DNA from: a virus
Taxonomy: Duplodnaviria; Caudoviricetes
Virus record (IMG/VR): IMGVR_UViG_3300037313_000559
Span: 1 to 31,155 of that record
Direction: 5' to 3' (one strand)
Length of the DNA: 31,155 nt
Shown here: piece after piece, positions 15,233 through 29,243 of the stretch
Layout: every line of letters starts with the position of its first letter
How positions within the stretch are numbered: position 1 is the stretch's first letter
Made by a program: the position numbers and the translations under genes
Notes under the pieces: model-generated
Database searches by the model: none
What the model saw: only the letters and a program-made list of their open reading frames with translations
What the model was told of the DNA's origin: nothing

Positions 15233-15910
15233 ATGCCCGCCCTCTCCCGCCTGCACGTCTGCAATCTGGCTGTAGCGCATTTGCCTGCGGAGCCGATTTC
15301 CAGTCTCGAAGAAAACAGCCTGCCAGCGCGGGAGTGCCGCCGCTTCTATCCGGAAGTCGTTTCCGACATGCTGGAGGGGCCGCACGATTGGAGCTTCGCC
15401 AACCGGCGCGAGTCCTTGGCGCTGAAGGCGGTCAACGACCGGGCTCAGGAATGGCTGTACGCCTATGCGCTGCCGGCGAACATGGGAACGCCGATCCGGG
15501 TCTTGCCCGATCTGGCGGCAGCTGGCCTTGGATTTCCGATCCCGCTGCCAGGCGAGCCCTTTGCCGAGACATGGGCATCGACCGGCACCTACATCGAAAC
15601 CCCTTACATCATTGAAGGCGACACGCTCTATTCGAACAGCTCAGGTGCCATCCTTGAATTTGGCGTCAATGACCTAACCGGCATCATCGTTTCGCAGCTG
15701 GTCATCCGGGCGATGGCGCTCGATCTTGCCGCCCGTCTGGCGATCCCGGTCAAGAAGGACAGCGAGCGGGAAAGCACCCTCTTGAATCTGGCCGAGGGCG
15801 CCTGGCAGCGCGCCATTGCCGACGATCGCAACCGCCAACCGGAGCAGAGCGGGCAGTATATTTCGGAAGCCATGGCGGCCCGCCGCGGATACCTGACCGA
15901 GGCGCCATAA
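15233..15910 (+). CDS. Tail tubular protein A / head-tail adaptor (T7 gp11-like)
   Basis: VCNLA..L....I.SL.E....AR.C..FY, HDWSFA..R..LA, W.YAY.LP. Confidence 0.85.
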   Translation: MPALSRLHVCNLAVAHLPAEPISSLEENSLPARECRRFYPEVVSDMLEGPHDWSFANRRESLALKAVNDRAQEWLYAYALPANMGTPIRVLPDLAAAGLGFPIPLPGEPFAETWASTGTYIETPYIIEGDTLYSNSSGAILEFGVNDLTGIIVSQLVIRAMALDLAARLAIPVKKDSERESTLLNLAEGAWQRAIADDRNRQPEQSGQYISEAMAARRGYLTEAP

Positions 15911-16611
15911 TGGGATACAGGGCGGCCCTGCTGAATTTCAGCAAAGGCGAAATTGCGCCTGAGCTGGAAGCGCGTTTCGACCTTTCTGCGTACCAGGTCG
16001 GGCTTCGCCTGGCGCGCAATGTGAAGATCCGTCGCACAGGCGGCGTCAGCAAGCGGATGGGCACCCGGTTCGTCGCCGAATGCCTTAGTAGCACGGCCCG
16101 CTTGTTCCCGTTCCAATTCAGCGATGAACAGGGATACGCGCTGGAGTTTGGCCAGGCGTACATGCGACCGCTCGCGCTGGGCGGCGCTGTCTTGGAAGAA
16201 GGGCTGAAGGTAACCGCCATCACCAAGGCGGCCCAGGCCAAGATCACAGCAGCCTTTCATGACTATGCCATCGGAGAACAAGTTTATTTGCGATCCGATG
16301 ACCCGGCCGCCTTTGGGATGCGCGAAATTCTCGATCGTTGGCTGACCATCGTGTCTGTACAAGATGACAACAATTTCACGGTCGACATCGACTCAACCAA
16401 CTTCAGTACGTTTGGGGTCGACGTTGGCACTGTACGGGTTGGCGATCCTCCGGCGCCGCCCCCGCCGCCAACCGTTCCGCCACCCGCCCCGGAGCCCACA
16501 CCACCAGACATCGGCTCAGGCTCTGGTGGCGGATATGAGGAGACATCTCCCGGCAGCGGTAACTACGAGTGGCGATGGAACCGCGAAGGCGGCTTCACGG
16601 ACATTCCCTGA
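15910..16611 (+). CDS. Tail tubular protein B (nozzle), N-terminal part with E1-FCCH-like insertion and polyproline tail
   Basis: NFSKGEIAP.L.AR.DL..Y, GG...R.GT.FV, RL.PF.FS....Y.LEFG..YMR; ITKA..A.IT...H...GE.V. Confidence 0.8.
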   Translation: MGYRAALLNFSKGEIAPELEARFDLSAYQVGLRLARNVKIRRTGGVSKRMGTRFVAECLSSTARLFPFQFSDEQGYALEFGQAYMRPLALGGAVLEEGLKVTAITKAAQAKITAAFHDYAIGEQVYLRSDDPAAFGMREILDRWLTIVSVQDDNNFTVDIDSTNFSTFGVDVGTVRVGDPPAPPPPPTVPPPAPEPTPPDIGSGSGGGYEETSPGSGNYEWRWNREGGFTDIP

Positions 16612-18428
16612 TGCCCGTTCATCGCATTCACCGAACGCCGTCGCCCTTCAATGCGGTCGAGCTCAATGAAATCGACTTCGAGCAGACCGCCGATGTTCTT
16701 TACCTGGCGCACGAAAATCACAAGCCGAACAAGCTCATTCGCACCGACCACGCGGCGTGGTCATTCAATGATGTCGCCTTCGGCCCGACGATCGGCGTTC
16801 CCTCTGGCGTGTCGGGTAGTGCGACCAAGCCGAACACGGATTCGGCGAACAGCGGCAACGCTTATTTCCCCCAGAACGCCACCTATGTCGTCACCGCCTA
16901 TAACGAGGAAACCGGGCAGGAAAGCCGCGCCTCTTCGTCGGTCACGCTCAACAACGACCTAGGGCTCAAACGGAATTACAATACGGTCACTTGGAGCGCC
17001 GTCGCAGGGGCAACTGGCTATCGGGTTTATAAGGCCGAGAACAGCCAGCTGTATGGCTACATTGGAACGACCGACCAGCTGACCTTCCGGGATGACAACA
17101 TTGGCCCTGACCTCAGCCAAGGCCCGCCGATCGGGGACAATCCCTTCAATGCGCCCGGCGATTATCCAGCCACCATCACCTTCCACGAGCAGCGGGCGTT
17201 CTGGGGCCGCACGGTCAATCGGCCCAATGCCGTTTTTGCATCCCGGTCGGCAGATTATGAAAACATGGATTTCACCCGCCCGACGCGGGAAGATGACGCC
17301 TTCGCGATTGGCCTGGTCGCGAACAAGGTCAATTCGGTCAACCAGCTCGTTTCATCGAAGCAGGGCCTACTGGCGTTGACTAGCCACAACATTTTCTCGA
17401 TCCAGGGCTCCAACGAGGATTATATCACGGCCGCGCCGCCTCCGCGTGTCCGGCCGGAAATCAGCCGCGGCGTGTCGCGCCTCAATCCCATCATCGTCGA
17501 TAATGTAACCTTCTACGAAACGGCCAAGACCGGCGAAATCCGGACCATCGGCTATGAGTTCGAAATGGACGGGATCAGGACGGACGATCTGACCATCTTC
17601 TCCCGGCACCTGTTCGAGAATGAGGATGTCGTCGATTGGGCTTATGCTGAGAAGCCGGCGTCGGCCATCTGGCTGGTCCGGGCCGATGGCAAGTTCCTCT
17701 GTTTGACGTGGGACCAGGCGCAGCAAGTCTGGGGATGGACGCTTTGCGAAACTGATGGGCTGGTGAAGCGGGTTTGCGTTGTCACTGAGCAGGGCGAAGA
17801 TCGGCTGTACATGCTGGTCGAGCGCGAGATTGACGGCGATCCCAAGCTCTACGTCGAGCGCATGGCTTCGGAGCTGTGGCAGGATCAGAAAGATGCCTGC
17901 TACCTGGATTGCGCCCGGACCTTCACCAATGGCGTCCCGGTTTCGTTTGTGGACCGCCTCGACCATCTGGAGGGCCGGGAAGTCGTCGCATGGGTCGACG
18001 GGGTTGTTGTCGACAAGGATGCCGATGGCGAGCCGCTGACGGTCACCAACGGCGCGCTGACACTGCCGCATCCCGGCAGCATCATCACGGTCGGGTTACC
18101 GTTCACCGCTTCGATTGAAACCCTCCCACTGGCGATCCAGACCGGCTCCGGATGGAACGTGGCCCGGCCGCAGCAGGCCGCTAAGGTTGTGCTTCGCGTC
18201 GTCAAGACACGCAACATCAGCGCCGGGCCGTCCGATGCGCTACTGTTCCCCGTCAAGCAGCGGGAAACCGAGGGCTATGATGATCCGATCGCACTAATGA
18301 CCGGCGACTTCGAAGCCGAGATGTCGGGAACGTCCGGCAATGAAACTGTTGTCGTTGTGCAATCGTCCGATCCGGCGCCGATGCACATTGCCGCCATCCT
18401 TGTCGAACCCATCATGGGGGACAAGTGA
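16611..18428 (+). CDS. Tail tubular protein B (nozzle, T7 gp12-like), C-terminal part (605 aa)
   Basis: TGATG-coupled start; P(F)...EL..I.F.Q.ADV.YL.H, YP..ITFHEQR, DLTI.S.HLF, QV.GW, YLDC. Confidence 0.85.
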   Translation: MPVHRIHRTPSPFNAVELNEIDFEQTADVLYLAHENHKPNKLIRTDHAAWSFNDVAFGPTIGVPSGVSGSATKPNTDSANSGNAYFPQNATYVVTAYNEETGQESRASSSVTLNNDLGLKRNYNTVTWSAVAGATGYRVYKAENSQLYGYIGTTDQLTFRDDNIGPDLSQGPPIGDNPFNAPGDYPATITFHEQRAFWGRTVNRPNAVFASRSADYENMDFTRPTREDDAFAIGLVANKVNSVNQLVSSKQGLLALTSHNIFSIQGSNEDYITAAPPPRVRPEISRGVSRLNPIIVDNVTFYETAKTGEIRTIGYEFEMDGIRTDDLTIFSRHLFENEDVVDWAYAEKPASAIWLVRADGKFLCLTWDQAQQVWGWTLCETDGLVKRVCVVTEQGEDRLYMLVEREIDGDPKLYVERMASELWQDQKDACYLDCARTFTNGVPVSFVDRLDHLEGREVVAWVDGVVVDKDADGEPLTVTNGALTLPHPGSIITVGLPFTASIETLPLAIQTGSGWNVARPQQAAKVVLRVVKTRNISAGPSDALLFPVKQRETEGYDDPIALMTGDFEAEMSGTSGNETVVVVQSSDPAPMHIAAILVEPIMGDK

Positions 18429-19426: not shown

Positions 19427-21489
19427 TGGCGCGGGTCGAAATCTACCAGGGCGGCAATGTCCGGCCGGCGTCGACAACCGATGCCCGGCTCAGGGCAGCC
19501 GACTTTTCGGCTTCTCCCCTTGGCGCTGGACTCCGCGCTACTGGCCAGGCGGTTTCTGAGTTCATCGACGCCAAGCAGCAAGCCGACGAAATCCAGGACC
19601 GGGCATCGGTCAAGGAAGCGGTCAACGCGCTTGGCCAGCATTACTCGGAAGTCGGATACACCGGCAGCAATCCCTATTATGAGAAGGCCGGCAAGGATGC
19701 GCTGACACTCCGGCCGGAAGTCGAAAAGGGGCTCGACGAATTTATCCAGACATCCCGCGCTGGGCTGGCCAACGACCGCCAGCGCAAGATCTACGACGAA
19801 GCCGTTACCCCGCAGCGGACAGCTTGGGGCATCCAGATCGCAAACCACGCGCAAAAGGAAGCTCGCCAGTATGACATTGACGAATCGCAGGCGCGGGTCG
19901 GCGTTTCCGGTGAGCTGGCGCGTGGCACCTACATTGCGGACCCGCACCATGCCGAAGAACAGATCGCCAGCGGCCTCGACGAGATCGACAATCTGGCCAG
20001 GCTCAACAGCTGGGGCCCGGATCGCATAGCGGTCGAAAAGCTGAAGTTCACGTCCTCGACGTACCGCGACATCGGCGCGGCCATCATTACCGCCGATCCG
20101 ACCAACGGCCCGACCGTGGCGGCGGCGCTGGTCGAGCAACAAAAAGGCGCGATGACAGCGGACGATCGAGAGTTCGTCCTGAATAACGCTCAGCAGCAAG
20201 TCCGGATGAACGAAGCCGAGAAGCGCCGCGAAGAAGCGGAGCTGAGGCGGATCGAGCGCGAGCAGAAATCAGACGCCAAGGACCGTGCCAATTCGGTCTA
20301 TCGCAACATCCAGGATGGCGTCCCGGTCGACTCTGCCACGCTGGCCGGAGCTATTGCCGATGCGAAGCAAGCCGACGATCCGGCTCTGGCTGAGGGCCTT
20401 CGCCAGGGCGGACTGAAGAATGCGCTCACTCGCCAATATGCCGGCGCTTCACCGGTCGAGCTTCAGGAACGGGTTAATACGCTCAGCGCGGAAATCGTTC
20501 GCGAGGGCGCCAAGGTTTCGCCGGACAAGATTGTCGAACGCGATCATCTGCAAACTTTGCTTGGCCGCGCTAATACCGCCGTCGCAACCGACCCCCTCTC
20601 CTATGGCGCTTCGGCCATGGGGATCGACATCGGCCGGCTCGATCTCAACAACAGCCAAAGCATCCAGGAGCGGTCCCGCGTTGCTGGCATGGTTTCGAAG
20701 CGGACGGGCGGCGCCATCAAGGTCATGACGAACGAAGAGGCGGCAACGTTCGCCCCGATCGTCAATGGCGATAACGTGCAGCAGAAGGCCCGGTTGGCGG
20801 TTGGCCTCGCCAGATTCGGCGGACTGGCTGACGAAGCGTCACGGCAGATCGCGCCGAACAATGACGGCTTCGCCAACTTGGTCGGTCTAGCCGGTCACAC
20901 GAACCACGCAGTTGGAATTTCGCGGGTGACCCAAGTTCTGGCTGGCCAAACCATCCTGAAATCGACGCCGAAGATGATCGACAGGGACGCGGCGATGCGG
21001 ATGTTCGATGCACAAACGGGGCTCGCCTTCACCTTCCTGCCATCCGTCCGGAAAGGCGTTCTCGACAATGCCTTTGCGCTGCTCGCTTATGACGCCAACG
21101 AGCGCGGCGAAAAGGAATGGGGCGGAGCGATCGGGGACAAGGGCTCGCGCTGGTATGCGGCGTTCAATTCAGCGCTCGGTGCCTATACGAGGGACGGCAA
21201 GCAGTACGGCGGGCTGGCTAAGTTGAATGGCGGGGTCACCATCGTTCCCGAAGAGATGGCGGTCCCCGACTTCGAAGCGCGGATTTCGCGGGCGCGAGGT
21301 CAGCAGTTCCGCAATGCCCAGAACGGGCTGCCTGAGCTGGCCAACGGCACGGTCCCGACTGCCGATATGCTCCGCAAGCTCCAGTGGATTCCCGTTCGCG
21401 ATGGCGTTTACCGCCTGTCCAACGGCGCCGCATATATGATGAAAAAGGGTGGCGGCTTCTACGAGGTCGACATCAGGAAGCTCAAATAA
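19426..21489 (+). CDS. Internal virion/ejection protein (T7 gp15-like position, 687 aa)
   Basis: GTG start overlapping the upstream stop; helical Ala/Gln/Glu-rich; synteny. Confidence 0.8.
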   Translation: MARVEIYQGGNVRPASTTDARLRAADFSASPLGAGLRATGQAVSEFIDAKQQADEIQDRASVKEAVNALGQHYSEVGYTGSNPYYEKAGKDALTLRPEVEKGLDEFIQTSRAGLANDRQRKIYDEAVTPQRTAWGIQIANHAQKEARQYDIDESQARVGVSGELARGTYIADPHHAEEQIASGLDEIDNLARLNSWGPDRIAVEKLKFTSSTYRDIGAAIITADPTNGPTVAAALVEQQKGAMTADDREFVLNNAQQQVRMNEAEKRREEAELRRIEREQKSDAKDRANSVYRNIQDGVPVDSATLAGAIADAKQADDPALAEGLRQGGLKNALTRQYAGASPVELQERVNTLSAEIVREGAKVSPDKIVERDHLQTLLGRANTAVATDPLSYGASAMGIDIGRLDLNNSQSIQERSRVAGMVSKRTGGAIKVMTNEEAATFAPIVNGDNVQQKARLAVGLARFGGLADEASRQIAPNNDGFANLVGLAGHTNHAVGISRVTQVLAGQTILKSTPKMIDRDAAMRMFDAQTGLAFTFLPSVRKGVLDNAFALLAYDANERGEKEWGGAIGDKGSRWYAAFNSALGAYTRDGKQYGGLAKLNGGVTIVPEEMAVPDFEARISRARGQQFRNAQNGLPELANGTVPTADMLRKLQWIPVRDGVYRLSNGAAYMMKKGGGFYEVDIRKLK

Positions 21490-24400
21490 TGGGCGTCATC
21501 CCTCAGACCGAAAACACCGAGGGCGTTGGAGCGGGCTTCGGCGCGATCCAAGAGCCGATCGACCGAACCGGCTTCTTCCAGAATATCGGCGCCGGCTATC
21601 GGGCCGCCCAAGCTGGACCGGGGACAACCCGCTCGCGCCAGAACGCCTATGAGGTCGATCTGTACAACCAGGTCATCGACGCACTGACAGCCGAAGGCGA
21701 GATGGGCGACGACTATCTGGAAGTTCGACCGGGGGGCATCGGCTACACCGGGCCCAAGGACATCCCGGTCAATGCCTACGGCGTCGGCCGCGTCCCGATC
21801 AAACGGAAGTTCCGCAACCCATACACCGCTCAGCCGAGCCTCAGTCAGAACGACAACCCGTTGGCGCGGCTCTATCTGGGCGGTGACACGGTTGAGAAGC
21901 AGGCGATCTGGGCGGCGGTCCAGAGGGTCCGCCGTCGCAAGCCGGATTTCCTGAAAGATTTGCCCGACGAAACCGCGCTGGCAACGCGGGCCGTCACCGC
22001 CCGCAACCGTGAACGCGCCAGCGCTGAGGAAGTCATGGCGCGGGCAAACACGGCCGGGACCGTAGGCGGCTTCATCGGCGGAGTGACCGGCAGCATTCTC
22101 GCTGGCGATCCAGAAAATTTCGTCGGCTTCGGCATCAGTAGCGCGCCAGCCAAGACGGTTGCCCGGACCATCATCAAGCGCGGCGTCACCGAAGGCGCAG
22201 TCAACGCTGGCGTTGGCGTCGTCGCCTTGCCTGGTCAGGTTGCAGATGCCGACCGGCTGGGTGACGAGATGACCGCTGGGGATATGGTCCGCTCGGTTGC
22301 CGAACAGGGCGCCGTTGGCCTTGTCTTAGGCACAGCTGCCGCGTCGGCCGGGCCACTCGCGGGCAAGGCCAAAAAGGTAGGCGGCAAGCTAGTCGAGGGA
22401 ACGGTTGATCTGGCGACGAAGCTTCCCGGCACTCGCGATCTTGTCATGGCTCGCGCCCTTGCCACTGGCACCGTCAAGGAACGCGACATGCTGGCGGAAT
22501 ATCGTCGGCTCCATAACCCCTACAGCATCAGCGACACGTCGACCCCGGACGAACGTGCTGCGATGAATGTGCTGGAGCGGGAAGTCGAGGTCCGCGAAGC
22601 TTCGCCGCTACACCCAGACGCTGATCCGGAGCATGAAAACCGACTAGGGGCCGTAGCCGACGCGCTTGGCGTGAAACTCGCGCCAGCTCCCCTGCCCTCA
22701 ACCGCCCCGGTCCAGCAGCCCACTATCAGGGATCGCAGTGACGGACCTTCACCCCGCCGCGTTGCGTCATTCGCCGAGGCCGTCCACCAAGCCGAGGGGA
22801 CAGGCAAGAATCCGGACAGCTCAGCCACTGGGCATTTCCAGTTCATTGATTCGACCTGGCTCGATTACGCGCCACGGGTCACCGACACGAAGGGAATGAG
22901 CCGGTCCAAGATTTTGGGCCTCAGGCAGAACCGCTCGATCGCTGAGGCGGCTGAGCGCCTGTTTCGTGCCGACAATGCCCGATATCTTCGGGCTCGTGGC
23001 GTCGAGGACAGCCCCGGCAACCTAAGCTTGGCGCACTTCCTTGGCGCGACCGATGCGGCCAAGACGCTCCGCGCTGCGCCCGATACGCCGATTGAGCGCA
23101 TCATCGACCCGAAATCGTATCGCGCCAACAAGAAGGTTCTGGAGGGCAAAAGCGCTTCGGAAGTTGTCGCGTGGGCTCACAAGCGCATCGGCGCTTCAAT
23201 CGACGCCCAGCCAGCTCGCGCTGATGCTGTTCCCGACTATGACATAGACGAAATCGACTATGCCTCAGTCCGTCCGTACGAGCGCCGGATTGTTCGGCCA
23301 GACGAGATCGAAACCGACGCTGCTCTGATGCAGTACAAGTCGGGCGGCGATGAAGCCGGCGTTACCGACAAGCTGAAGGATGTCACCAGCTGGAACCCGA
23401 CGCTTTCCTCTGAAATCATGCTCTGGGAAGGTGCTGATGGGCGCTTGATCGTTGTCGACGGTCACCAGCGCACCGGACTGGCTAAAAGGCTCTATGCTGA
23501 AGATCCCACGATTGAGCTGCCAGCGATCGTTTTCCGGGAAGCGGATGGCATTACCGCAGCGCAAGCCCGCGTCCTGGGCGCGATGCGCAACATCAACCTG
23601 GGCACCGGCTCCCTGCTCGACAATGCCCGCGTTCTGAGGGACGCACCGCAGGGCGCTGCCATGCTTCGCGGGGCTGAGAACCGGCGCGAAATCGAGGGGC
23701 TGGCGGGCCTCTCCTATGAAGCGTTCGGCGCCGCCATCAATGACGTGATCGACCCGCGCATTGCTGCTGAGATCGGCCGCCACGCTGGACACGCTCCGGA
23801 AACGCACATGGCCTTGGTCGACTTGCTGGTCAAAAGCCGGGTTTCCAACCCTCGCGAAGCCGCGACGATCGTTCGCCAGGCTCAGGCCGATGGGTTCGGG
23901 ACGCCGCAGGAAGAGCAGCTGGGGATGTTCGGCGACACCCCGGCCCAGTCGCTTTATGTGCCGATTGCGCGTATATTGGACGCGGCTTCGAAGCGGCTCC
24001 GGGACGAACGGCGCACCTTCAAGACGCTCAGCGAGAAGGCCGGGCGGATCGAAGATGCGGGCAATGTCCTGGATCGCACAGCCAACCAAGGGAAGGTCAT
24101 TTCCAGTGACGAAGCGCTCGCAATCCTCAACGCAACCGCCCACTCCAGCGGACCCGTCAGGGATGCCCTCATCGCAGCGGCCCGAACCGAGCTTTCCGGT
24201 TCTCGACGCGCCGATGCCGTCAAGCAATTCCTCGACGCTCTCTCCGGGATCGACCTACGAGCTGCCGCCAGAGGATTGGAACGAGATGGTCCATCTGGCG
24301 AACCATTTGGCGGAGCGGGAAGCGAGGCTGCCGCTGAGGCGTCGGATGCGGACGTTCCTGACGGAAGCCAACCAAGCCTCCTTGATCGAGCCCTAGACAC

Positions 24401-26486
24401 CGCCGCCCGCGCCGAAGTCTTTTCCGACCCAGTTGGGCCGGGAGCGAAAGAACAGACCGACCTTCTCACGCACGACTTGCGGATGGATGCCTTGCAGCAG
24501 ACCCGCACAGTCTTTCACGGCACCGATGCCGTTTTTGACGAGTTCGACGTAGGGCGCGGCGGTTCCAACCAGGAAGGCTTCGCCTATCCGATGGGCTTTT
24601 TCACAACGTCGCCGGCAGAGGCCGCCGTCTATGGCGCCAACGTTGGCACGTTCGAAAACCTGTCCGAAAACCCGATCGTCGTTCAGACCGATTATCCGCC
24701 CTTCCAGGAATGGGAGACGCAAAAGGTCCAGCTGCTGAAGCAGGCGCGGGACGAAGGCTTTGACAGCATCATTATCCAGGGGCCGGAAAGCAGCCTGCTG
24801 GTCGCGCTCGACAACGACAAAATCCGCCGCGCTCAGGCGCTGACCCTGGACCGTGTGATGGAGGGACAGCGCGGGGCATCGCTGGACGAGCTGATTGGCC
24901 GAGCGAACGAGAATCAGGCGCAGCTTGCTGCGATCGGCGACGACCTGGCCAGCGAGCATGGCATTGAGTTCAAAAACCCCGGCATCAAGGAAACCGGGCG
25001 CATCCGGTCCAAGATCGAGAACGAAGGTTATGCCGATGTCGACGAGCTGAAAGACCTGAGCCGCGGCGCCTTCATTATCGACACCCCAGAACAAGCCAAC
25101 GCGCTGGCCGCCCAGCTCGCCTCTCAATTTCAGACCTATGACAAGGGTTGGGTCGAGCTGGACAGCGGCTATTTCGACCGCAAGCTGATTGTCGCGTTCC
25201 CGAATGGAGGCGTTGGCGAAATCCAGATCGTCCCGCGCACCGTTTGGGATGCCAAAACGGGCGGCCTAAACGGCCTCTACAAGCGCCTTCGCGCCAGTAC
25301 CAATGCCTTAGAGATTGCCGACCTGATGGCCGACCAGCAGGCTGGCTATGCAGCCGCCTTGGAAGGAACGCCGTTCGCGGCCTTGCGCAGCTCGTCCAGG
25401 TCCGCGTCCGGGAACATCGACGTAAACTCCGCTTCGGTCAGTGACCGGCCGTCAGCCGACGCCTTGCCCAGCATCCCCGGCGCCGAACGCCAGATGCCCT
25501 TGGACCAGGCCCAGCCCGTTCCTTCGCCTGAAGTGGACCAGACGTTGGCGACTGGCCGCTCTTCGACTTCAAATAAATCAATGCTCAATGAGGGAACCTC
25601 CGAAGCTGATATAGGGCAAGAGGGCGGAATCGTCAACGAAACCGGCCCGCTGATCTCTCCGGCCGTCCGCGAAGAGCTGGTGACTGGGGCTCCCAACAGC
25701 GAGCTTGGAGCCCGCGTCGACCAGATAAATGCGGTTGCCGAGGACGATATCGAGCGCCTGCTGTTGGAGCCTGTCACCGACCGCGCCAGCAAGCTGCTGA
25801 CCGATGCTCTCACCGTGCGCCCGGACCTGGCCAGGTCCGACATTCTTCGCCGTGCCGCAGCGATCGCAGCCGCCGATGGGAGCGAAGCGATCGATCGTGT
25901 CCACATTGCCGAGTCACTGTCCTACGCTCCGGTCTTTGAAGGCCCGCGACCGGACATGGGGGAAGCGCCCCCGCGAGCCGCCTTCCCTGTCGCCAATCTC
26001 AACGCTCCCGATGCGGCAGCTGAGGCGCGTCGGATCGCTGTCGAGCTACAGCGCCGCGGCTGGCTGGACAGTGCTGGCGGCGGGCCCGATTACCGATGGG
26101 GCACATTACTCACCAACCGGGCAGGCGAGCGTCCCCCAAAGGGCTGGGCCGCACTCGAAATGGAAACGCCAGGCCGCCCGGTCTATTTCTTCAACCCGAA
26201 CGAGCTGCGCAAGGAAGCCGAAGCACTACCCCCGCTCGATCGCGGAGCCGAAGTGGACCCGGCGATTGCAGAGCGCCAGCGCCAGGAAGCCCAGCTGAAG
26301 GCCGAAGCGCCGATGCGCTCTGTGGCCGAGCAGGAAAGCACGATGGGGCTAGGACTGTTCGATGCGGTTGACCAGCCGACCTTCCGGCTAAGCGAGGAAG
26401 GCGATGCCCGTTCGATCGACGACATCCTGCGCGAAGCCGATGCAGACGAAGCAGCCGCCAAGAACGCAAAGGATTGTCTGAAATGA
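21489..26486 (+). CDS. Giant polyvalent internal virion protein (1665 aa): lysozyme/SLT-like, ParB-like, ART-like and RelA/SpoT-like domains
   Basis: TAATG-coupled start; AE...KNP.SSA.G.FQFIDSTW...LAHFLG (about 22765-23190); VVDGHQR (about 23280-23620); VFHGT...F.EF...FFT...A..YG...GFDSII (about 24505-24830); IK...RI..K, D..R, SGY.D, EIQ (about 24975-25240). Confidence 0.88.
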   Translation: MGVIPQTENTEGVGAGFGAIQEPIDRTGFFQNIGAGYRAAQAGPGTTRSRQNAYEVDLYNQVIDALTAEGEMGDDYLEVRPGGIGYTGPKDIPVNAYGVGRVPIKRKFRNPYTAQPSLSQNDNPLARLYLGGDTVEKQAIWAAVQRVRRRKPDFLKDLPDETALATRAVTARNRERASAEEVMARANTAGTVGGFIGGVTGSILAGDPENFVGFGISSAPAKTVARTIIKRGVTEGAVNAGVGVVALPGQVADADRLGDEMTAGDMVRSVAEQGAVGLVLGTAAASAGPLAGKAKKVGGKLVEGTVDLATKLPGTRDLVMARALATGTVKERDMLAEYRRLHNPYSISDTSTPDERAAMNVLEREVEVREASPLHPDADPEHENRLGAVADALGVKLAPAPLPSTAPVQQPTIRDRSDGPSPRRVASFAEAVHQAEGTGKNPDSSATGHFQFIDSTWLDYAPRVTDTKGMSRSKILGLRQNRSIAEAAERLFRADNARYLRARGVEDSPGNLSLAHFLGATDAAKTLRAAPDTPIERIIDPKSYRANKKVLEGKSASEVVAWAHKRIGASIDAQPARADAVPDYDIDEIDYASVRPYERRIVRPDEIETDAALMQYKSGGDEAGVTDKLKDVTSWNPTLSSEIMLWEGADGRLIVVDGHQRTGLAKRLYAEDPTIELPAIVFREADGITAAQARVLGAMRNINLGTGSLLDNARVLRDAPQGAAMLRGAENRREIEGLAGLSYEAFGAAINDVIDPRIAAEIGRHAGHAPETHMALVDLLVKSRVSNPREAATIVRQAQADGFGTPQEEQLGMFGDTPAQSLYVPIARILDAASKRLRDERRTFKTLSEKAGRIEDAGNVLDRTANQGKVISSDEALAILNATAHSSGPVRDALIAAARTELSGSRRADAVKQFLDALSGIDLRAAARGLERDGPSGEPFGGAGSEAAAEASDADVPDGSQPSLLDRALDTAARAEVFSDPVGPGAKEQTDLLTHDLRMDALQQTRTVFHGTDAVFDEFDVGRGGSNQEGFAYPMGFFTTSPAEAAVYGANVGTFENLSENPIVVQTDYPPFQEWETQKVQLLKQARDEGFDSIIIQGPESSLLVALDNDKIRRAQALTLDRVMEGQRGASLDELIGRANENQAQLAAIGDDLASEHGIEFKNPGIKETGRIRSKIENEGYADVDELKDLSRGAFIIDTPEQANALAAQLASQFQTYDKGWVELDSGYFDRKLIVAFPNGGVGEIQIVPRTVWDAKTGGLNGLYKRLRASTNALEIADLMADQQAGYAAALEGTPFAALRSSSRSASGNIDVNSASVSDRPSADALPSIPGAERQMPLDQAQPVPSPEVDQTLATGRSSTSNKSMLNEGTSEADIGQEGGIVNETGPLISPAVREELVTGAPNSELGARVDQINAVAEDDIERLLLEPVTDRASKLLTDALTVRPDLARSDILRRAAAIAAADGSEAIDRVHIAESLSYAPVFEGPRPDMGEAPPRAAFPVANLNAPDAAAEARRIAVELQRRGWLDSAGGGPDYRWGTLLTNRAGERPPKGWAALEMETPGRPVYFFNPNELRKEAEALPPLDRGAEVDPAIAERQRQEAQLKAEAPMRSVAEQESTMGLGLFDAVDQPTFRLSEEGDARSIDDILREADADEAAAKNAKDCLK
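24214..24396 (+). CDS. Possible overprinted +1-frame ORF inside the giant gene (start uncertain: 24214 or 24286)
   Basis: YELPPEDWNEMVHLANHLAEREARLPLRRRMRTFLTEANQASLIEP; codon bias shifts to this frame. Confidence 0.4.
   Translation: MPSSNSSTLSPGSTYELPPEDWNEMVHLANHLAEREARLPLRRRMRTFLTEANQASLIEP
25346..25588 (-). CDS. Nested antisense gene (80 aa), candidate immunity protein for the RelA/SpoT-like domain
   Basis: TTG start at 25588 with GGAGG 8 nt upstream; protein MSIDLFEVEERPVANVW...GWAWSKGIW...KASADGRSLTEAEFTSMFPDADLDEL; has its own promoter. Confidence 0.7.
   Translation of the reverse strand: MSIDLFEVEERPVANVWSTSGEGTGWAWSKGIWRSAPGMLGKASADGRSLTEAEFTSMFPDADLDELRKAANGVPSKAAA
25597..25636 (-). 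promoter_or_regulatory. Sigma70-type promoter and SD for the nested antisense gene
   Basis: Minus strand TTGACG (25636-25631), 17 nt, TATATC (25613-25608), GGAGG (25601-25597). Confidence 0.7.
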
Positions 26487-28966
26487 GCCTCCGCCGCTGC
26501 ATTCCTGAAATGCTGGGCGATGGCCGGCTCACCCGCGACCAGGCCGAGCGGCTGGGCAGCCTGTACGACGAGCTGGAAGCGGACTTCTCGACTAAGTTTG
26601 GCAGGCAGGCAGCCGAGGCGATGGCTTCGGAAGAGGCAACCAGGCGCTTCGAAGCCGACTCATTGCATCGCAAACGGCAAGCCGTGCTTCAGGTCAAAGC
26701 CCAGCAGCAAATCGCTGCGGACGTTCGCTCGTTCAAGGGCGATAGTGCAGGCGCGGCCGCCACGGCCCTATTCACCGGGGACAGCCGGGCGCCCTACGCC
26801 AATGTCGAGCGCATTGCGGACATGATCGAGGGTCAGGCCCATGCCATGATGAATGGCCTACTTGCCCGCTTCAGCCGCAACATGATTGGCCAAGTCCGGG
26901 ATCGCGCCACGCTGCGCAATGTCGTTCGGGAAGCCTTCGGTGAAAACACCGGGGATGCCGTGGCGCGGGAGCTGGCGAAAGCATGGGGCGAAACCGCTGA
27001 AATGCTGAGGCTCCGCTTCAACTCGGCGGGCGGCGCAATCGGCAAACTGGAGAATTGGGGGCTTCCCCAGGTCCACAACTGGCTCAGCGTCCGTTCCGCC
27101 ACTTTCGAGGAATGGCGGGACTTCATCGGGCCGCTGCTCGATCGGCAGAAAATGCGGGACATTTCCGGCGATCCCTTGACGCCGCAACAGATGGAGATTG
27201 CCCTCCGCAATGCCTATGAGACAATTTCGTCGGAAGGCTGGAACACGCGCCAGGCCGGGCAATTCGCCGGGTCGAAAGTCGCCAACCGGCACGGCGATCA
27301 TCGCTTCCTGATCTTCAAGGATGCCGACGCCTGGATGACCTATTCGCAGCGGTTCGGCCGGCCTTTGTCCGCCACAGCTGAAGCGCTCGATCCAGACGGC
27401 CCGATCTTTGACGCGATGCTCAGCCATATCCGTGGCCTCAGCCGGGAAATCGCCATGCTGGAGCGGTTCGGCCCGAACCCAGCCGCAACACTCCGATGGC
27501 TGACAGACGGGCTGGAGCAGGAAGCCAAGCTGCCGAAGCATCAGGGCGGGGCGCGCTCGAAAGAGAACCGCCGTGCCAAGGTCCGGCTCGAAGCGCTGTA
27601 CGACGAGGCATCAGGCCGCAACCGGGAAACCGCAGATGGCACTCTGGCTAATGTCGGCTCGGCCGTCCGCTCTTTCCAGGTTGCGGCGAAGTTGGGCTCA
27701 GCTGTCGTTTCGGCGATTTCCGATGTCGGTTTCCAGCACGTCACCGCCAAGTTCAACGGGCTGTCGTCCGCCCGGATCGTCGCCAATTACGGACGCATGT
27801 TCAAAAGCCAGTCGTCGGCGGATCGGCAGTTGGCGGCTCGCTTGTGGATGGTCAACGAGAACGCCACTCGGATGGCGGCAGCCCAGTCCCGCTTCACTGG
27901 CGAAGTCGTCACTGGCGAAATGATGTCCCGGATGTCGGATACCGTCATGCGGGCCTCTGGGCTCAACGCTTGGACCCAGGCCGGGCGCTGGGCATTTGGC
28001 ATGGAGTTTTGGTCGCACATCACCAGCCAGTCGACGAAGAATTGGGACAACATCGACAAGCCTTTCCGCAAGCAGCTGGAGCGCTACGGCTTCAACGAAG
28101 CGGACTGGAATCAGATCAGGTCGACCGAGCTGGAGGAAACCGATGCCGGCACTTGGCTGTTGCCGGACAATATCCAGAACAAGCAGCTGGCCGAACGGCT
28201 AGCCATGATGATCGCGACCGAAACCGACTATGCGGTCCCGACTGCCAGCCTCAGGGTTTCGGCGGCAATCAATTCGACCCTGAAGCGGGGAACGGCCATC
28301 GGCGAGATCGGCCGCTCGATGTATCAGTTCAAGTCGTTCCCGGTGACCGTCATGTGGATGCATGGCCGCCGCATGATCGAGGCGGGAGCCTATGACGGGC
28401 TGAAGTACGCAGCCCGCCTGGCCATCACAACGACGCTGCTGGGCGCAGTGGCGATGCAGCTCCGGAATCTGATCAACGGCAAAGACCCGCACGAGATGAC
28501 CGGGGAAAATTGGGATGAGTTTTGGCTGAAGGCTTTCGCGCAAGGCGGCGGCGGCGGGGTCTTGGGCGATTTCATTGGCCAGACCCAGAACCGCTTCGAT
28601 CAAAAATTCGCCGAATGGGCCGCTGGTCCGTCATTCGCCAGCGCTCAGGACATTTGGAACCTGGCGCGAGCAACGATGGACCGACTGTCGCCTGAGCCAG
28701 GCAAAGAGCTTCAGGCCCAGAGCAAGCAGGCCAAAACGCTCCGCCGCTTCCTCCAGGGCAACACTCCGGGATCTTCGCTGTGGTACATCAAGCTGGCGTT
28801 CCAGCGTGAAGTTCTCGACCAGCTGCAAGAGGAAATGGACCCGGATTATTGGGAAAGCTTCGACCGACTGGAGAAGCGGGCAGCAGAGGAAAATCAGTCC
28901 TATTATTGGCGCCCCGGCGAGCAGCAGCCAGAACGAGCCCCCGATTTTACTGCCGCAGTCCCCTGA
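26483..28966 (+). CDS. Internal virion/ejection protein (827 aa, gp16-like helical part)
   Basis: ATGA-coupled; R.RFN.AGG.IGKL..W.LPQ.H, HR.L.FKDA..W..Y...FG, GE..RS..QFKSFP, GGG.G..GD. Confidence 0.85.
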   Translation: MSLRRCIPEMLGDGRLTRDQAERLGSLYDELEADFSTKFGRQAAEAMASEEATRRFEADSLHRKRQAVLQVKAQQQIAADVRSFKGDSAGAAATALFTGDSRAPYANVERIADMIEGQAHAMMNGLLARFSRNMIGQVRDRATLRNVVREAFGENTGDAVARELAKAWGETAEMLRLRFNSAGGAIGKLENWGLPQVHNWLSVRSATFEEWRDFIGPLLDRQKMRDISGDPLTPQQMEIALRNAYETISSEGWNTRQAGQFAGSKVANRHGDHRFLIFKDADAWMTYSQRFGRPLSATAEALDPDGPIFDAMLSHIRGLSREIAMLERFGPNPAATLRWLTDGLEQEAKLPKHQGGARSKENRRAKVRLEALYDEASGRNRETADGTLANVGSAVRSFQVAAKLGSAVVSAISDVGFQHVTAKFNGLSSARIVANYGRMFKSQSSADRQLAARLWMVNENATRMAAAQSRFTGEVVTGEMMSRMSDTVMRASGLNAWTQAGRWAFGMEFWSHITSQSTKNWDNIDKPFRKQLERYGFNEADWNQIRSTELEETDAGTWLLPDNIQNKQLAERLAMMIATETDYAVPTASLRVSAAINSTLKRGTAIGEIGRSMYQFKSFPVTVMWMHGRRMIEAGAYDGLKYAARLAITTTLLGAVAMQLRNLINGKDPHEMTGENWDEFWLKAFAQGGGGGVLGDFIGQTQNRFDQKFAEWAAGPSFASAQDIWNLARATMDRLSPEPGKELQAQSKQAKTLRRFLQGNTPGSSLWYIKLAFQREVLDQLQEEMDPDYWESFDRLEKRAAEENQSYYWRPGEQQPERAPDFTAAVP

Positions 28967-29243
28967 GGTACATGCCGCACCCCGCTGCGTTGCCAATGCC
29001 GTCCCATGACCGGACTATCCCGGCGTCGGTCACCAGCTTGAATGAGCAGCTGGGGCCGGTCGGATGGTCGGTTCCGTAATAGTAGATGGTCCGGCCAGCG
29101 ATCACTTCCTGGCGATCGGGATAGCCGAGCCGTTTGAAGGCGACATCGATCGGCTGGCCAATCAATTGACCCATGCCCTGGCTGAAGTCGCCCGTAGTGG
29201 CGCAACCGCAGAGAAACAGGACGCTGAATAGGAGCCCGCGCAT
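28947..29243 (-). CDS. Small lipoprotein moron (98 aa), candidate superinfection-exclusion protein
   Basis: Signal peptide MRGLLFSVLFLCG-C with a lipobox-like motif; G.PID....LGYPD...IYYY SmpA/OmlA-like pattern; two further Cys; opposite strand. Confidence 0.75.
   Translation of the reverse strand: MRGLLFSVLFLCGCATTGDFSQGMGQLIGQPIDVAFKRLGYPDRQEVIAGRTIYYYGTDHPTGPSCSFKLVTDAGIVRSWDGIGNAAGCGMYLRGLRQ

What the first reader, a model, noticed from the sequence alone, without database searches (positions are those of the whole stretch)
24975..25636. Hidden antisense gene with its own promoter nested behind the virion RelA/SpoT-like domain: candidate injected-toxin/immunity system
Seen: entirely within the giant ORF, the minus strand carries TTGACG-N17-TATATC, GGAGG, 8 nt, then TTG at 25588 opening an 80-codon ORF to TAG at 25346. 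The product looks globular (FEVEERPVA, three-Trp cluster GWAWSKGIW, DGRSLTEAEFTSMFP). Over the same bases the + frame degrades to Ser/Pro-rich shadow text (RSSSRSASG...TGRSSTSNKS), and the pattern reverses beyond 25640. It converges on the end of the RelA/SpoT-like domain. Established: toxic small alarmone synthetases need cognate antitoxins. Inference: a host-sigma70-driven immunity gene expressed in the lysogen, independent of the late promoters, neutralises the virion-delivered enzyme during assembly or superinfection. Nesting makes toxin and antidote travel as one cassette. I know of no description of this arrangement, but could not search.
Basis: partly seen in the sequence, partly recalled or inferred. 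Interest (0 to 1): 0.9.

Follow-up and report, generated by a model that had tools for sequence, protein, structure and literature searches.

The report
Hidden antidote gene inside phage toxin
A small gene with its own promoter-like signal runs backwards inside a giant phage particle gene, directly behind a domain related to the bacteria-killing enzyme Tas1, and is kept in that position in many distantly related phages, so it likely encodes the antidote that travels with a toxin the phage is predicted to inject.

Summary
The 80-codon antisense ORF (25588-25346) is a real, conserved gene. It has 41 database hits, a confident fold (pLDDT 90), and minus-frame purifying selection in relatives (p 2e-8). 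Its promoter-like site is the only one of that score in the 31-kb window. The domain in front is Tas1/Apk-like (Foldseek E 1e-9), with the active-site residues kept. Of 33 homolog clusters, 25 carry a small antisense gene nested behind the domain, 4 carry it tail-to-tail, 1 has it fused in frame and 3 (one clade) lack it. The unit recurs in unrelated carrier proteins. The small protein's best structural match among 48,161 PDB chains is Tis1, the Tas1 immunity protein, but weakly (Z 3.6; profile P 0.001-0.007). Best reading: an Apk-toxin/Tis1-like immunity cassette whose antidote is overprinted antisense in the linker, so it can sit inside a polyvalent virion protein. Toxicity, binding, expression and lysogeny are untested. 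One substrate motif differs from Apk1/2. The pair type is known; I found the arrangement in none of my literature searches.

The parts
21489..26486 (+). Giant polyvalent protein (1665 aa) among internal-virion genes of a BPP-1-like podovirus module: transglycosylase-like, ParB-like, ART-PolyVal-like and Tas1-like domains
   Evidence: phrog_4067 transglycosylase E 6e-14; phrog_10691 E 4e-49; flanked by phrog_308/418 internal virion proteins and phrog_684 virion structural protein; portal PF12236, capsid PF20911, Bbp16, Bbp19 in the window. 'ParB-like' is a recalled motif reading; relatives carry PF18763
24507..24833 (+). ART-PolyVal-like ADP-ribosyltransferase domain just before the synthetase domain
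   Evidence: PF18760 E 9e-5, 23.7 bits, below the curated cut-off 31.2
24870..25388 (+). Tas1/Apk-like alarmone-synthetase (toxSAS) domain; invariant K40, K48, D62, R65, Y101, E117, Q119, Y137 (numbered from 24870)
   Evidence: phmmer 6ox6_A E 6e-7; profile E 8e-16; model pLDDT 96; Foldseek 6ox6_A E 9.5e-10, TM 0.72; hhalign to a Tas1 ortholog 98.7%; alignment
25346..25588 (-). Nested antisense gene, 80 aa, beta-meander plus helices; candidate Tis1/IapK-like immunity protein
   Evidence: searches (41 hits at E<=1e-3; pLDDT 89.7; top hit 6ox6_B, Z 3.6; selection in relatives), 116/123/126
25597..25601 (-). Shine-Dalgarno GGAGG, 8 nt before TTG; the predicted transcription start is about 25601 (inferred)
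   Evidence: SD-led starts at the same place in 26 of 33 clusters
25608..25613 (-). -10 element TATATC (C at -7, common in Alphaproteobacteria)
   Evidence: conserved geometry; PMC7703639 (start of abstract seen)
25631..25636 (-). -35 element TTGACG, 17 nt before the -10
25389..25640 (+). Ser-rich linker of the giant protein that hosts the antisense gene and its promoter; the two frames share third codon positions
   Evidence: (95 of 99 long-tailed homologs have at least 2x Ser here)

Best explanation
This is a conserved two-part phage cassette: a Tas1-like enzyme domain inside a giant virion-module protein and, overprinted backwards on the linker right behind it, a small gene with its own promoter-like site and ribosome-binding site that likely encodes the enzyme's Tis1-like immunity protein. 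Shown: both reading frames, the conserved signals, the protein family, selection on the minus frame in relatives, the Tas1 fold with active-site residues, and joint movement between unrelated carrier proteins. Inferred steps: (1) the giant protein is packaged and ejected into the host, by its position among internal virion genes; (2) the domain pyrophosphorylates a nucleotide, most likely ATP/ADP to (p)ppApp, and is toxic; (3) host sigma70 transcribes the antisense gene independently of late transcription; (4) the 80-aa protein binds the enzyme and blocks its acceptor site as Tis1 does. This would protect the producing cell during assembly, any lysogen, and the newly infected cell once phage DNA is read. 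The nesting solves a layout problem: an internal toxin domain cannot have a same-strand immunity gene behind it without breaking the carrier's frame, so an approximately 770-bp in-frame module (24870-25640) carries its own antidote.
For: Domain is Tas1-like. Co-occurrence: of 90 loci (89 fetched plus the window; 33 clusters at 70% domain identity), 25 clusters are nested, 3 overlap the tail, 1 is convergent with a 2-nt gap in another frame, 1 is fused, 3 have none. An HMM built only from 26 database proteins hits 17 of 9,595 six-frame segments, all on the minus strand directly behind the domain; 16 of them are outside the window. A blind scan for promoter+SD+ORF units nested in long genes gave 18 distinct proteins behind the domain and 1 elsewhere. 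Promoter score >=10 in 13 of 26 cluster representatives against 0.2% of control windows, all 13 with a 17-nt spacer. Minus-nonsynonymous/plus-synonymous changes: 5 of 251 opportunities in the nested region against 35 of 211 in the toxin domain, p 1.6e-8. L058: the small domain is fused in frame on the same strand behind the enzyme. L013 and L090 have a minus-strand HD_4 hydrolase gene nearby, as in apk2-iapK-aph1. Carriers differ: BPP-1-like virion proteins, DUF2213 head proteins (L058, L070), a 4018-aa helicase/LPD protein (L016). Tis1 likeness: rank 1 of 48,161 chains; profile vs a Tis1 ortholog P 0.001 over 26 columns, above 150 of 150 shuffles and 150 of 150 unrelated fragments. Pairwise identities of enzyme and small protein correlate (Spearman 0.58, 0 of 2000 permutations), which shows co-inheritance only.
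Against: One well-supported clade (18 loci, 3 clusters, about 490-aa proteins, 100/100) keeps the K/D/R/EQ residues at the C-terminus yet has no family member and no SD-led antisense ORF. The Tis1 match is weak: Z 3.6, rmsd 3.4 A over 58 residues, tied with unrelated rows; hhalign probability 21%, and only 5.6% (P 0.007) with two orthologs. The motif aligned with Tas1 'GVN' is an invariant D-x-K here, unlike the GxN of Apk or the SxH of ppGpp synthetases (PMC12226406), so the substrate is open. The family domain also occurs at the N-terminus of 270-374-aa proteins of unknown function. A divergent subfamily (L011, L017, L018, L049, L052 and kin) is tied to the window's protein by position, signals and one invariant Trp, not by an independent HMM; it supplies most of the selection counts. 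The plus frame is also somewhat constrained (9 of 179 vs 39 of 324 transversions, p 0.01). Lysogeny of this phage is not shown.
Confidence: 0.72

Rival explanations
1. The small protein is a real partner of the domain but not an antidote. It is a chaperone, activator or specificity factor, or the enzyme makes a mild signalling nucleotide and needs no neutralising.
For: A clade lacks it with active-site residues intact; the acceptor-side motif is D-x-K; the Tis1 likeness is weak.
Against: Its best PDB match is the immunity chain of the very entry that best matches the enzyme; HD hydrolase genes lie beside it in two loci; every characterised cytoplasmic Apk has such a small binder (PMC10083569, PMC12226406 passages).
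Confidence: 0.17
2. The working element is the antisense transcript. A host-driven convergent promoter silences leaky expression of the toxic late gene by interference or RNA pairing, and the peptide is secondary.
For: The promoter is strongly conserved and points at the 3' end of the toxin domain.
Against: Amino-acid-level selection on the minus frame, a folded family, free-standing copies in another frame (L013) and a same-strand in-frame fusion (L058) all point to the protein. RNA silencing may add to it.
Confidence: 0.07
3. It is an independent moron gene, for example a superinfection or defence factor, that colonised a permissive linker and has no link to the enzyme.
For: Family members exist as parts of larger proteins whose context was not seen.
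Against: 18 of 19 promoter-led nested ORFs found lie behind this domain, in unrelated carriers; all held-out HMM hits are at this place.
Confidence: 0.03
4. It is a chance open frame on the opposite strand of GC-rich coding DNA (shared-wobble shadow).
For: This phase shares third positions and is often open; 19 of 223 control windows contain an SD-led ORF of this size.
Confidence: 0.01

Closest known systems
Tas1 (Apk1)-Tis1, T6SS effector-immunity pair of Pseudomonas aeruginosa PA14 (PDB 6OX6)
   Same: Enzyme fold and active-site residues; a partner of about 77-80 aa whose fold and C-terminal motif resemble Tis1.
   Different: Carrier is a phage virion-module protein, not PAAR; the domain is internal; the partner gene is antisense, nested and has its own promoter-like site, whereas tis1 follows on the same strand (L095); D-x-K replaces GVN.
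Apk2-IapK(BcTis1)-Aph1, MuF polymorphic toxins of temperate phages (PMC10083569 passages; PMC12226406 parts 1-3 of 4 read)
   Same: Phage-borne alarmone-synthetase toxin with a small protein-binding immunity gene and an optional HD hydrolase; presumed virion delivery.
   Different: There the toxin is C-terminal on MuF and the immunity genes follow it. Here there is no MuF in the carrier, the domain has 190-2000 residues behind it, and the immunity candidate is overprinted antisense.
Polyvalent proteins of phages (Iyer et al. 2017, PMC5512222; passages read)
   Same: Large multidomain protein with ART-PolyVal, ParB-like, LPD and RelA/SpoT-type domains, proposed to act at invasion.
   Different: That paper's main text has no occurrence of 'antisense' or 'opposite strand'; the passages seen name no immunity partner for the RelA/SpoT domain. 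Its supplements were not seen.
Fused toxSAS system CapRel-SJ46 and FaRel/AT2faRel (PMC11782079 passages)
   Same: L058's in-frame enzyme-small-domain fusion resembles a fused toxin-antitoxin; (pp)pApp synthetases are blocked by Tis1-like domains.
   Different: These are host defence or TA loci, not virion proteins; CapRel uses a pseudo-zinc-finger antitoxin and acts on tRNA.
Nested phage genes such as lambda Rz/Rz1 (recalled, from no call)
   Same: A small functional partner encoded wholly inside a larger gene.
   Different: Same strand, lysis function, no promoter of its own.

Membership tests
RSH small alarmone synthetase fold (toxSAS) | SYNTH fold | tested here: met
   Foldseek: 6ox6_A E 9.5e-10, SaEAS 8vx3 3e-7, SAS1 5ded 1e-6
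RSH small alarmone synthetase fold (toxSAS) | Conserved K, K, D, R, Y and E-x-Q active-site residues | tested here: met
   Invariant in 36 rows and identical in a Tas1 ortholog; that these are catalytic is recalled knowledge
Apk1/Apk2 (p)ppApp synthetases | GxN signature at syn3 | tested here: not met
   D-x-K aligns with GVN of Tas1; signature from PMC12226406; mapping GVN to syn3 is my inference
Apk1/Apk2 (p)ppApp synthetases | N-terminal PAAR (Apk1) or MuF (Apk2) delivery domain with C-terminal toxin | tested here: not met
   No PAAR or MuF hit; domain internal with 365 residues behind it
Apk1/Apk2 (p)ppApp synthetases | Makes (p)ppApp from ATP and inhibits growth | not testable with these tools
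   Needs an assay
Tis1/IapK-like immunity proteins | Tis1 fold | tested here: inconclusive
   Rank 1 of 48,161 but Z 3.6, rmsd 3.4, 58 aligned; no Foldseek hit at E<=0.001
Tis1/IapK-like immunity proteins | Sequence homology to Tis1 | tested here: inconclusive
   hhalign P 0.001, probability 21%, 26 columns; above all 300 controls; P 0.007 with two orthologs; no PDB sequence hit
Tis1/IapK-like immunity proteins | Small gene adjacent to the 3' end of the Apk domain | tested here: met
   30 of 33 clusters, but antisense rather than co-directional
Tis1/IapK-like immunity proteins | Binds the toxin and occludes the acceptor site | not tested
Polyvalent proteins (Iyer 2017) | Large multidomain phage protein with polyvalent-type domains | tested here: met
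   ART-PolyVal (sub-threshold), transglycosylase; relatives with LPD23, LPD38, ddrB-ParB, GNAT
Temperate-phage toxin-immunity module | Phage forms lysogens | tested here: inconclusive
   No PF00589 in a 72%-complete record; serine recombinase at 1986-2687; one relative lies in a Rhodospirillales chromosome

The most novel reading that the evidence does not exclude
Polyvalent virion proteins deliver a poison whose antidote only the incoming genome can supply. The injected Tas1-like domain starts draining ATP at entry, and the nested host-promoter gene is among the first things read from the phage DNA. A cell that lets the genome be transcribed is rescued, while a cell that destroys it by restriction or CRISPR dies: injection-coupled addiction, built as a portable in-frame domain cassette that annotation misses.
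Probability: 0.2. Interest if true: 0.93.

Novelty: new variant of a known kind. Interest (0 to 1): 0.78.

Why it matters
How phages tolerate toxic enzyme domains in the middle of their own virion proteins, and what phage-borne (p)ppApp toxins are for, are open questions (stated for MuF toxins in PMC10083569). This supplies a concrete candidate antidote that gene callers miss because it lies antisense inside the annotated gene, and a pair of about 170 and 80 residues that can be tested directly. It also suggests that Ser-rich 'linkers' behind effector domains of polyvalent proteins can be the shadow of hidden immunity genes, which is a searchable signature.

Tried and rejected
No family match for the 80-aa protein in Pfam or PHROGs, PDB sequences, Foldseek PDB, BFVD at E<=0.001 (66) or the ESM Atlas (88). 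A single-sequence locus search with the domain found nothing; with the small protein it gave one spurious locus, L001 (16, 19, 20), which was dropped. No tblastn match for two versions of the domain among 50,697 GenBank phages, so I found no cultured phage to test. The longer 186-aa start (ATG 25906) was rejected: upstream open length varies widely in homologs and the promoter lies inside it. No RNA holder was listed for the stretch (79); DNA contigs gave only two short exact pieces and no variants (80). The VIA search for the enzyme model was not run; Foldseek was used. Searches for more Tas1-Tis1 pairs gave two in about 1,200 genomes (112, 120, 121; one genome was not scored), too few for a deep Tis1 profile. 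No hidden SD-led ORF common to the clade that lacks the gene was found (95; 10 of its 18 loci inspected). Literature: searches listed no paper describing an antisense nested immunity gene for an Apk or polyvalent toxin. The library lacks most subscription papers, including the original Tas1 and S. pneumoniae Apk2 reports, which I did not read. No supplements were read.
Full report
Setting. The window is a whole 31,155-base linear virus record, estimated 72% complete. It carries the virion module of a BPP-1-like podovirus: terminase, portal (PF12236), GP7 capsid, Bbp16, Bbp19, tail proteins and internal virion proteins. The giant gene (ATG 21489-26486, 1665 aa) lies among the internal-virion genes. 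It has a transglycosylase-like part, a phrog_10691 part, a sub-threshold ART-PolyVal domain and the domain at issue. Its packaging and ejection are inferred from this position.

The observation. The built-in scan missed the promoter because the -10 ends in C. Only 30-43% of promoters in three Alphaproteobacteria have that T (PMC7703639, start of abstract). Under my own score, devised after seeing this site, it is the only site reaching 10 on either strand of the window.

The enzyme domain. Residues from 24870 match Tas1 (6ox6_A) by sequence (E 6e-7; profile 8e-16). The AlphaFold model (pLDDT 96) has Tas1 as best Foldseek hit (E 9.5e-10, TM 0.72), ahead of SaEAS and the ppGpp synthetases. K40, K48, D62, R65, Y101, E117, Q119 and Y137 are invariant in 36 rows and shared with a Tas1 ortholog. 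One motif differs: D-x-K stands where Tas1 has GVN. PMC12226406 (parts 1-3 of 4 read) gives GxN as the Apk signature and SxH as the ppGpp signature. The substrate is therefore likely but not certainly ATP/ADP, and I do not file the domain as Apk1 or Apk2.

The small gene is real. A phmmer search of 1.84 billion representatives gave 41 hits at E<=1e-3. Of the 36 I retrieved, 28 are 69-115 aa and 8 are 136-374 aa; five long low-scoring hits were not examined. A 46-row alignment has an invariant W33 and folds at pLDDT 89.7 into a beta-meander with three helices. In this phase the two frames share third codon positions, so I counted third-position changes that are silent in only one frame, in nine groups of close relatives (the window has no close relative and is not among them). 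Changes that alter only the minus protein occurred at 5 of 251 opportunities in the nested region and 35 of 211 in the toxin domain (p 1.6e-8). The plus frame is also mildly constrained (p 0.01). Sites within a group are not fully independent.

It travels with the domain. Profile searches gave 51 viral, 37 metagenome and 1 genome loci. With the window that makes 90, partly redundant, in 33 clusters at 70% domain identity. By cluster, the small gene is nested antisense in 25 (23 with an SD-led start, 2 by HMM only), overlaps the tail in 3, is convergent with a 2-nt gap and in another frame in 1, is fused in frame on the plus strand in 1 (L058), and is absent in 3. By locus the counts are 59, 9, 2, 1 and 19, one of the 19 being a truncated contig. 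The HMM was built from these loci, so I repeated the test with an HMM from 26 database proteins only. It hit 17 of 9,595 six-frame segments, all antisense directly behind the domain. It did not reach the divergent subfamily (L011, L017, L018, L049, L052 and kin), whose kinship rests on position, signals and alignment. Promoter score >=10 was met by 13 of 26 representatives against 0.2% of control windows; all 13 have a 17-nt spacer and 8 have 19 nt to the start. A blind scan of all long genes in the loci found 18 distinct promoter+SD ORFs behind the domain and 1 elsewhere. At protein level, 95 of 99 long-tailed homologs show a doubled Ser content behind the domain; 3 of the 4 exceptions were mis-anchored by my script. 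Carriers include BPP-1-like virion proteins, DUF2213 head proteins and a 4018-aa helicase/LPD protein.

What the small protein is. Among 48,161 PDB representatives the top row is 6ox6_B, Tis1 (Z 3.6, rmsd 3.4, 58 aligned). Its weight comes from being the partner chain of the entry that best matches the enzyme. A genome search turned up a Tas1 ortholog followed by a 77-aa gene (L095) that is a Tis1 ortholog (E 2e-38 to 6ox6_B). The family profile aligns with its last 26 residues (P 0.001, probability 21%) and scores above 150 shuffles and 150 unrelated fragments. Adding a second ortholog weakened this to P 0.007. Two loci also have an HD_4 hydrolase gene on the minus strand (L013, L090), echoing apk2-iapK-aph1 (PMC10083569, PMC11699363, passages).

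Against. One clade (100/100; 18 loci) keeps the active-site residues in a C-terminal domain and has no such gene. Either its enzyme is tamed or it is protected by something elsewhere. Lysogeny of this phage is unproven: there is no tyrosine integrase, a serine recombinase is present, and one relative sits in a Rhodospirillales chromosome. There are no expression data.

Mechanism and verdict. The best-supported reading (0.72) is a toxin-immunity cassette in which a Tis1-like antidote is overprinted antisense on the linker behind an internal Tas1-like domain, with a host-type promoter that would make it before and apart from the late genes. It works like Tas1-Tis1 and Apk2-IapK. It fails membership in Apk1/2 on carrier and one motif, and its membership in the Tis1 family is inconclusive. 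Iyer et al. (PMC5512222, passages; no 'antisense' or 'opposite strand' in the main text) described RelA/SpoT domains in polyvalent proteins. Searches listed no description of this arrangement, within a library that lacks most subscription papers. An earlier, unchecked note of this scan (e1-8118832) reports small genes hidden in linkers of another giant virion gene; I treat it as a lead only. Verdict: new variant of a known kind, interest 0.78.

Noticed in passing
L058:1550-5305 (+): The small domain is fused in frame about 25 residues behind the Tas1-like domain in a 1241-aa NUDIX/DUF2213 protein next to a MuF gene: a possible self-inhibited, CapRel-like fusion.
   Followed up: partly
L013:7085-7531 (-); L090:725-1186 (-): HD_4 (SAH/Aph1-like) hydrolase genes on the same strand as the small antisense gene; candidate second, enzymatic immunity.
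   Followed up: partly
L022, L025-L027, L032, L034, L035, L037, L038, L040-L048: A single clade of about 490-aa virion-module proteins with a C-terminal Tas1-like domain, intact active-site residues and no detectable immunity gene.
   Followed up: partly
P0039, P0040, P0043, P0045, P0049, P0050, P0063, P0075: The small domain forms the N-terminal part of 136-374-aa proteins with no Pfam match; genomic context unknown (orphan or poly-immunity proteins?).
   Followed up: no
window 28947-29243 (-): 98-aa gene with a lipoprotein-like signal (phrog_3716, E 9e-8) between the last virion gene and the tail fibre; TTGCCG-17 nt-CATCTT lies 8 nt before its ATG, suggesting a second host-promoter moron.
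   Followed up: no
window 15910-16611 and 16569-18428 (+): The phrog_376 tail protein is in two overlapping ORFs (profile 9-108 and 103-709), the first with an added phrog_584-like segment: a split gene, frameshift or insertion.
   Followed up: no
L070:2575-7308 (+): A DUF2213 carrier combines the Tas1-like domain, its nested antisense gene and an Acb1 anti-CBASS domain (E 4e-38).
   Followed up: no
L092, L094, L096-L104: 257-274-residue stand-alone relatives in bacterial genomes; those in L092 are tandem with signal-peptide-like N-termini, resembling the exported alarmone synthetases of PMC12691689.
   Followed up: no
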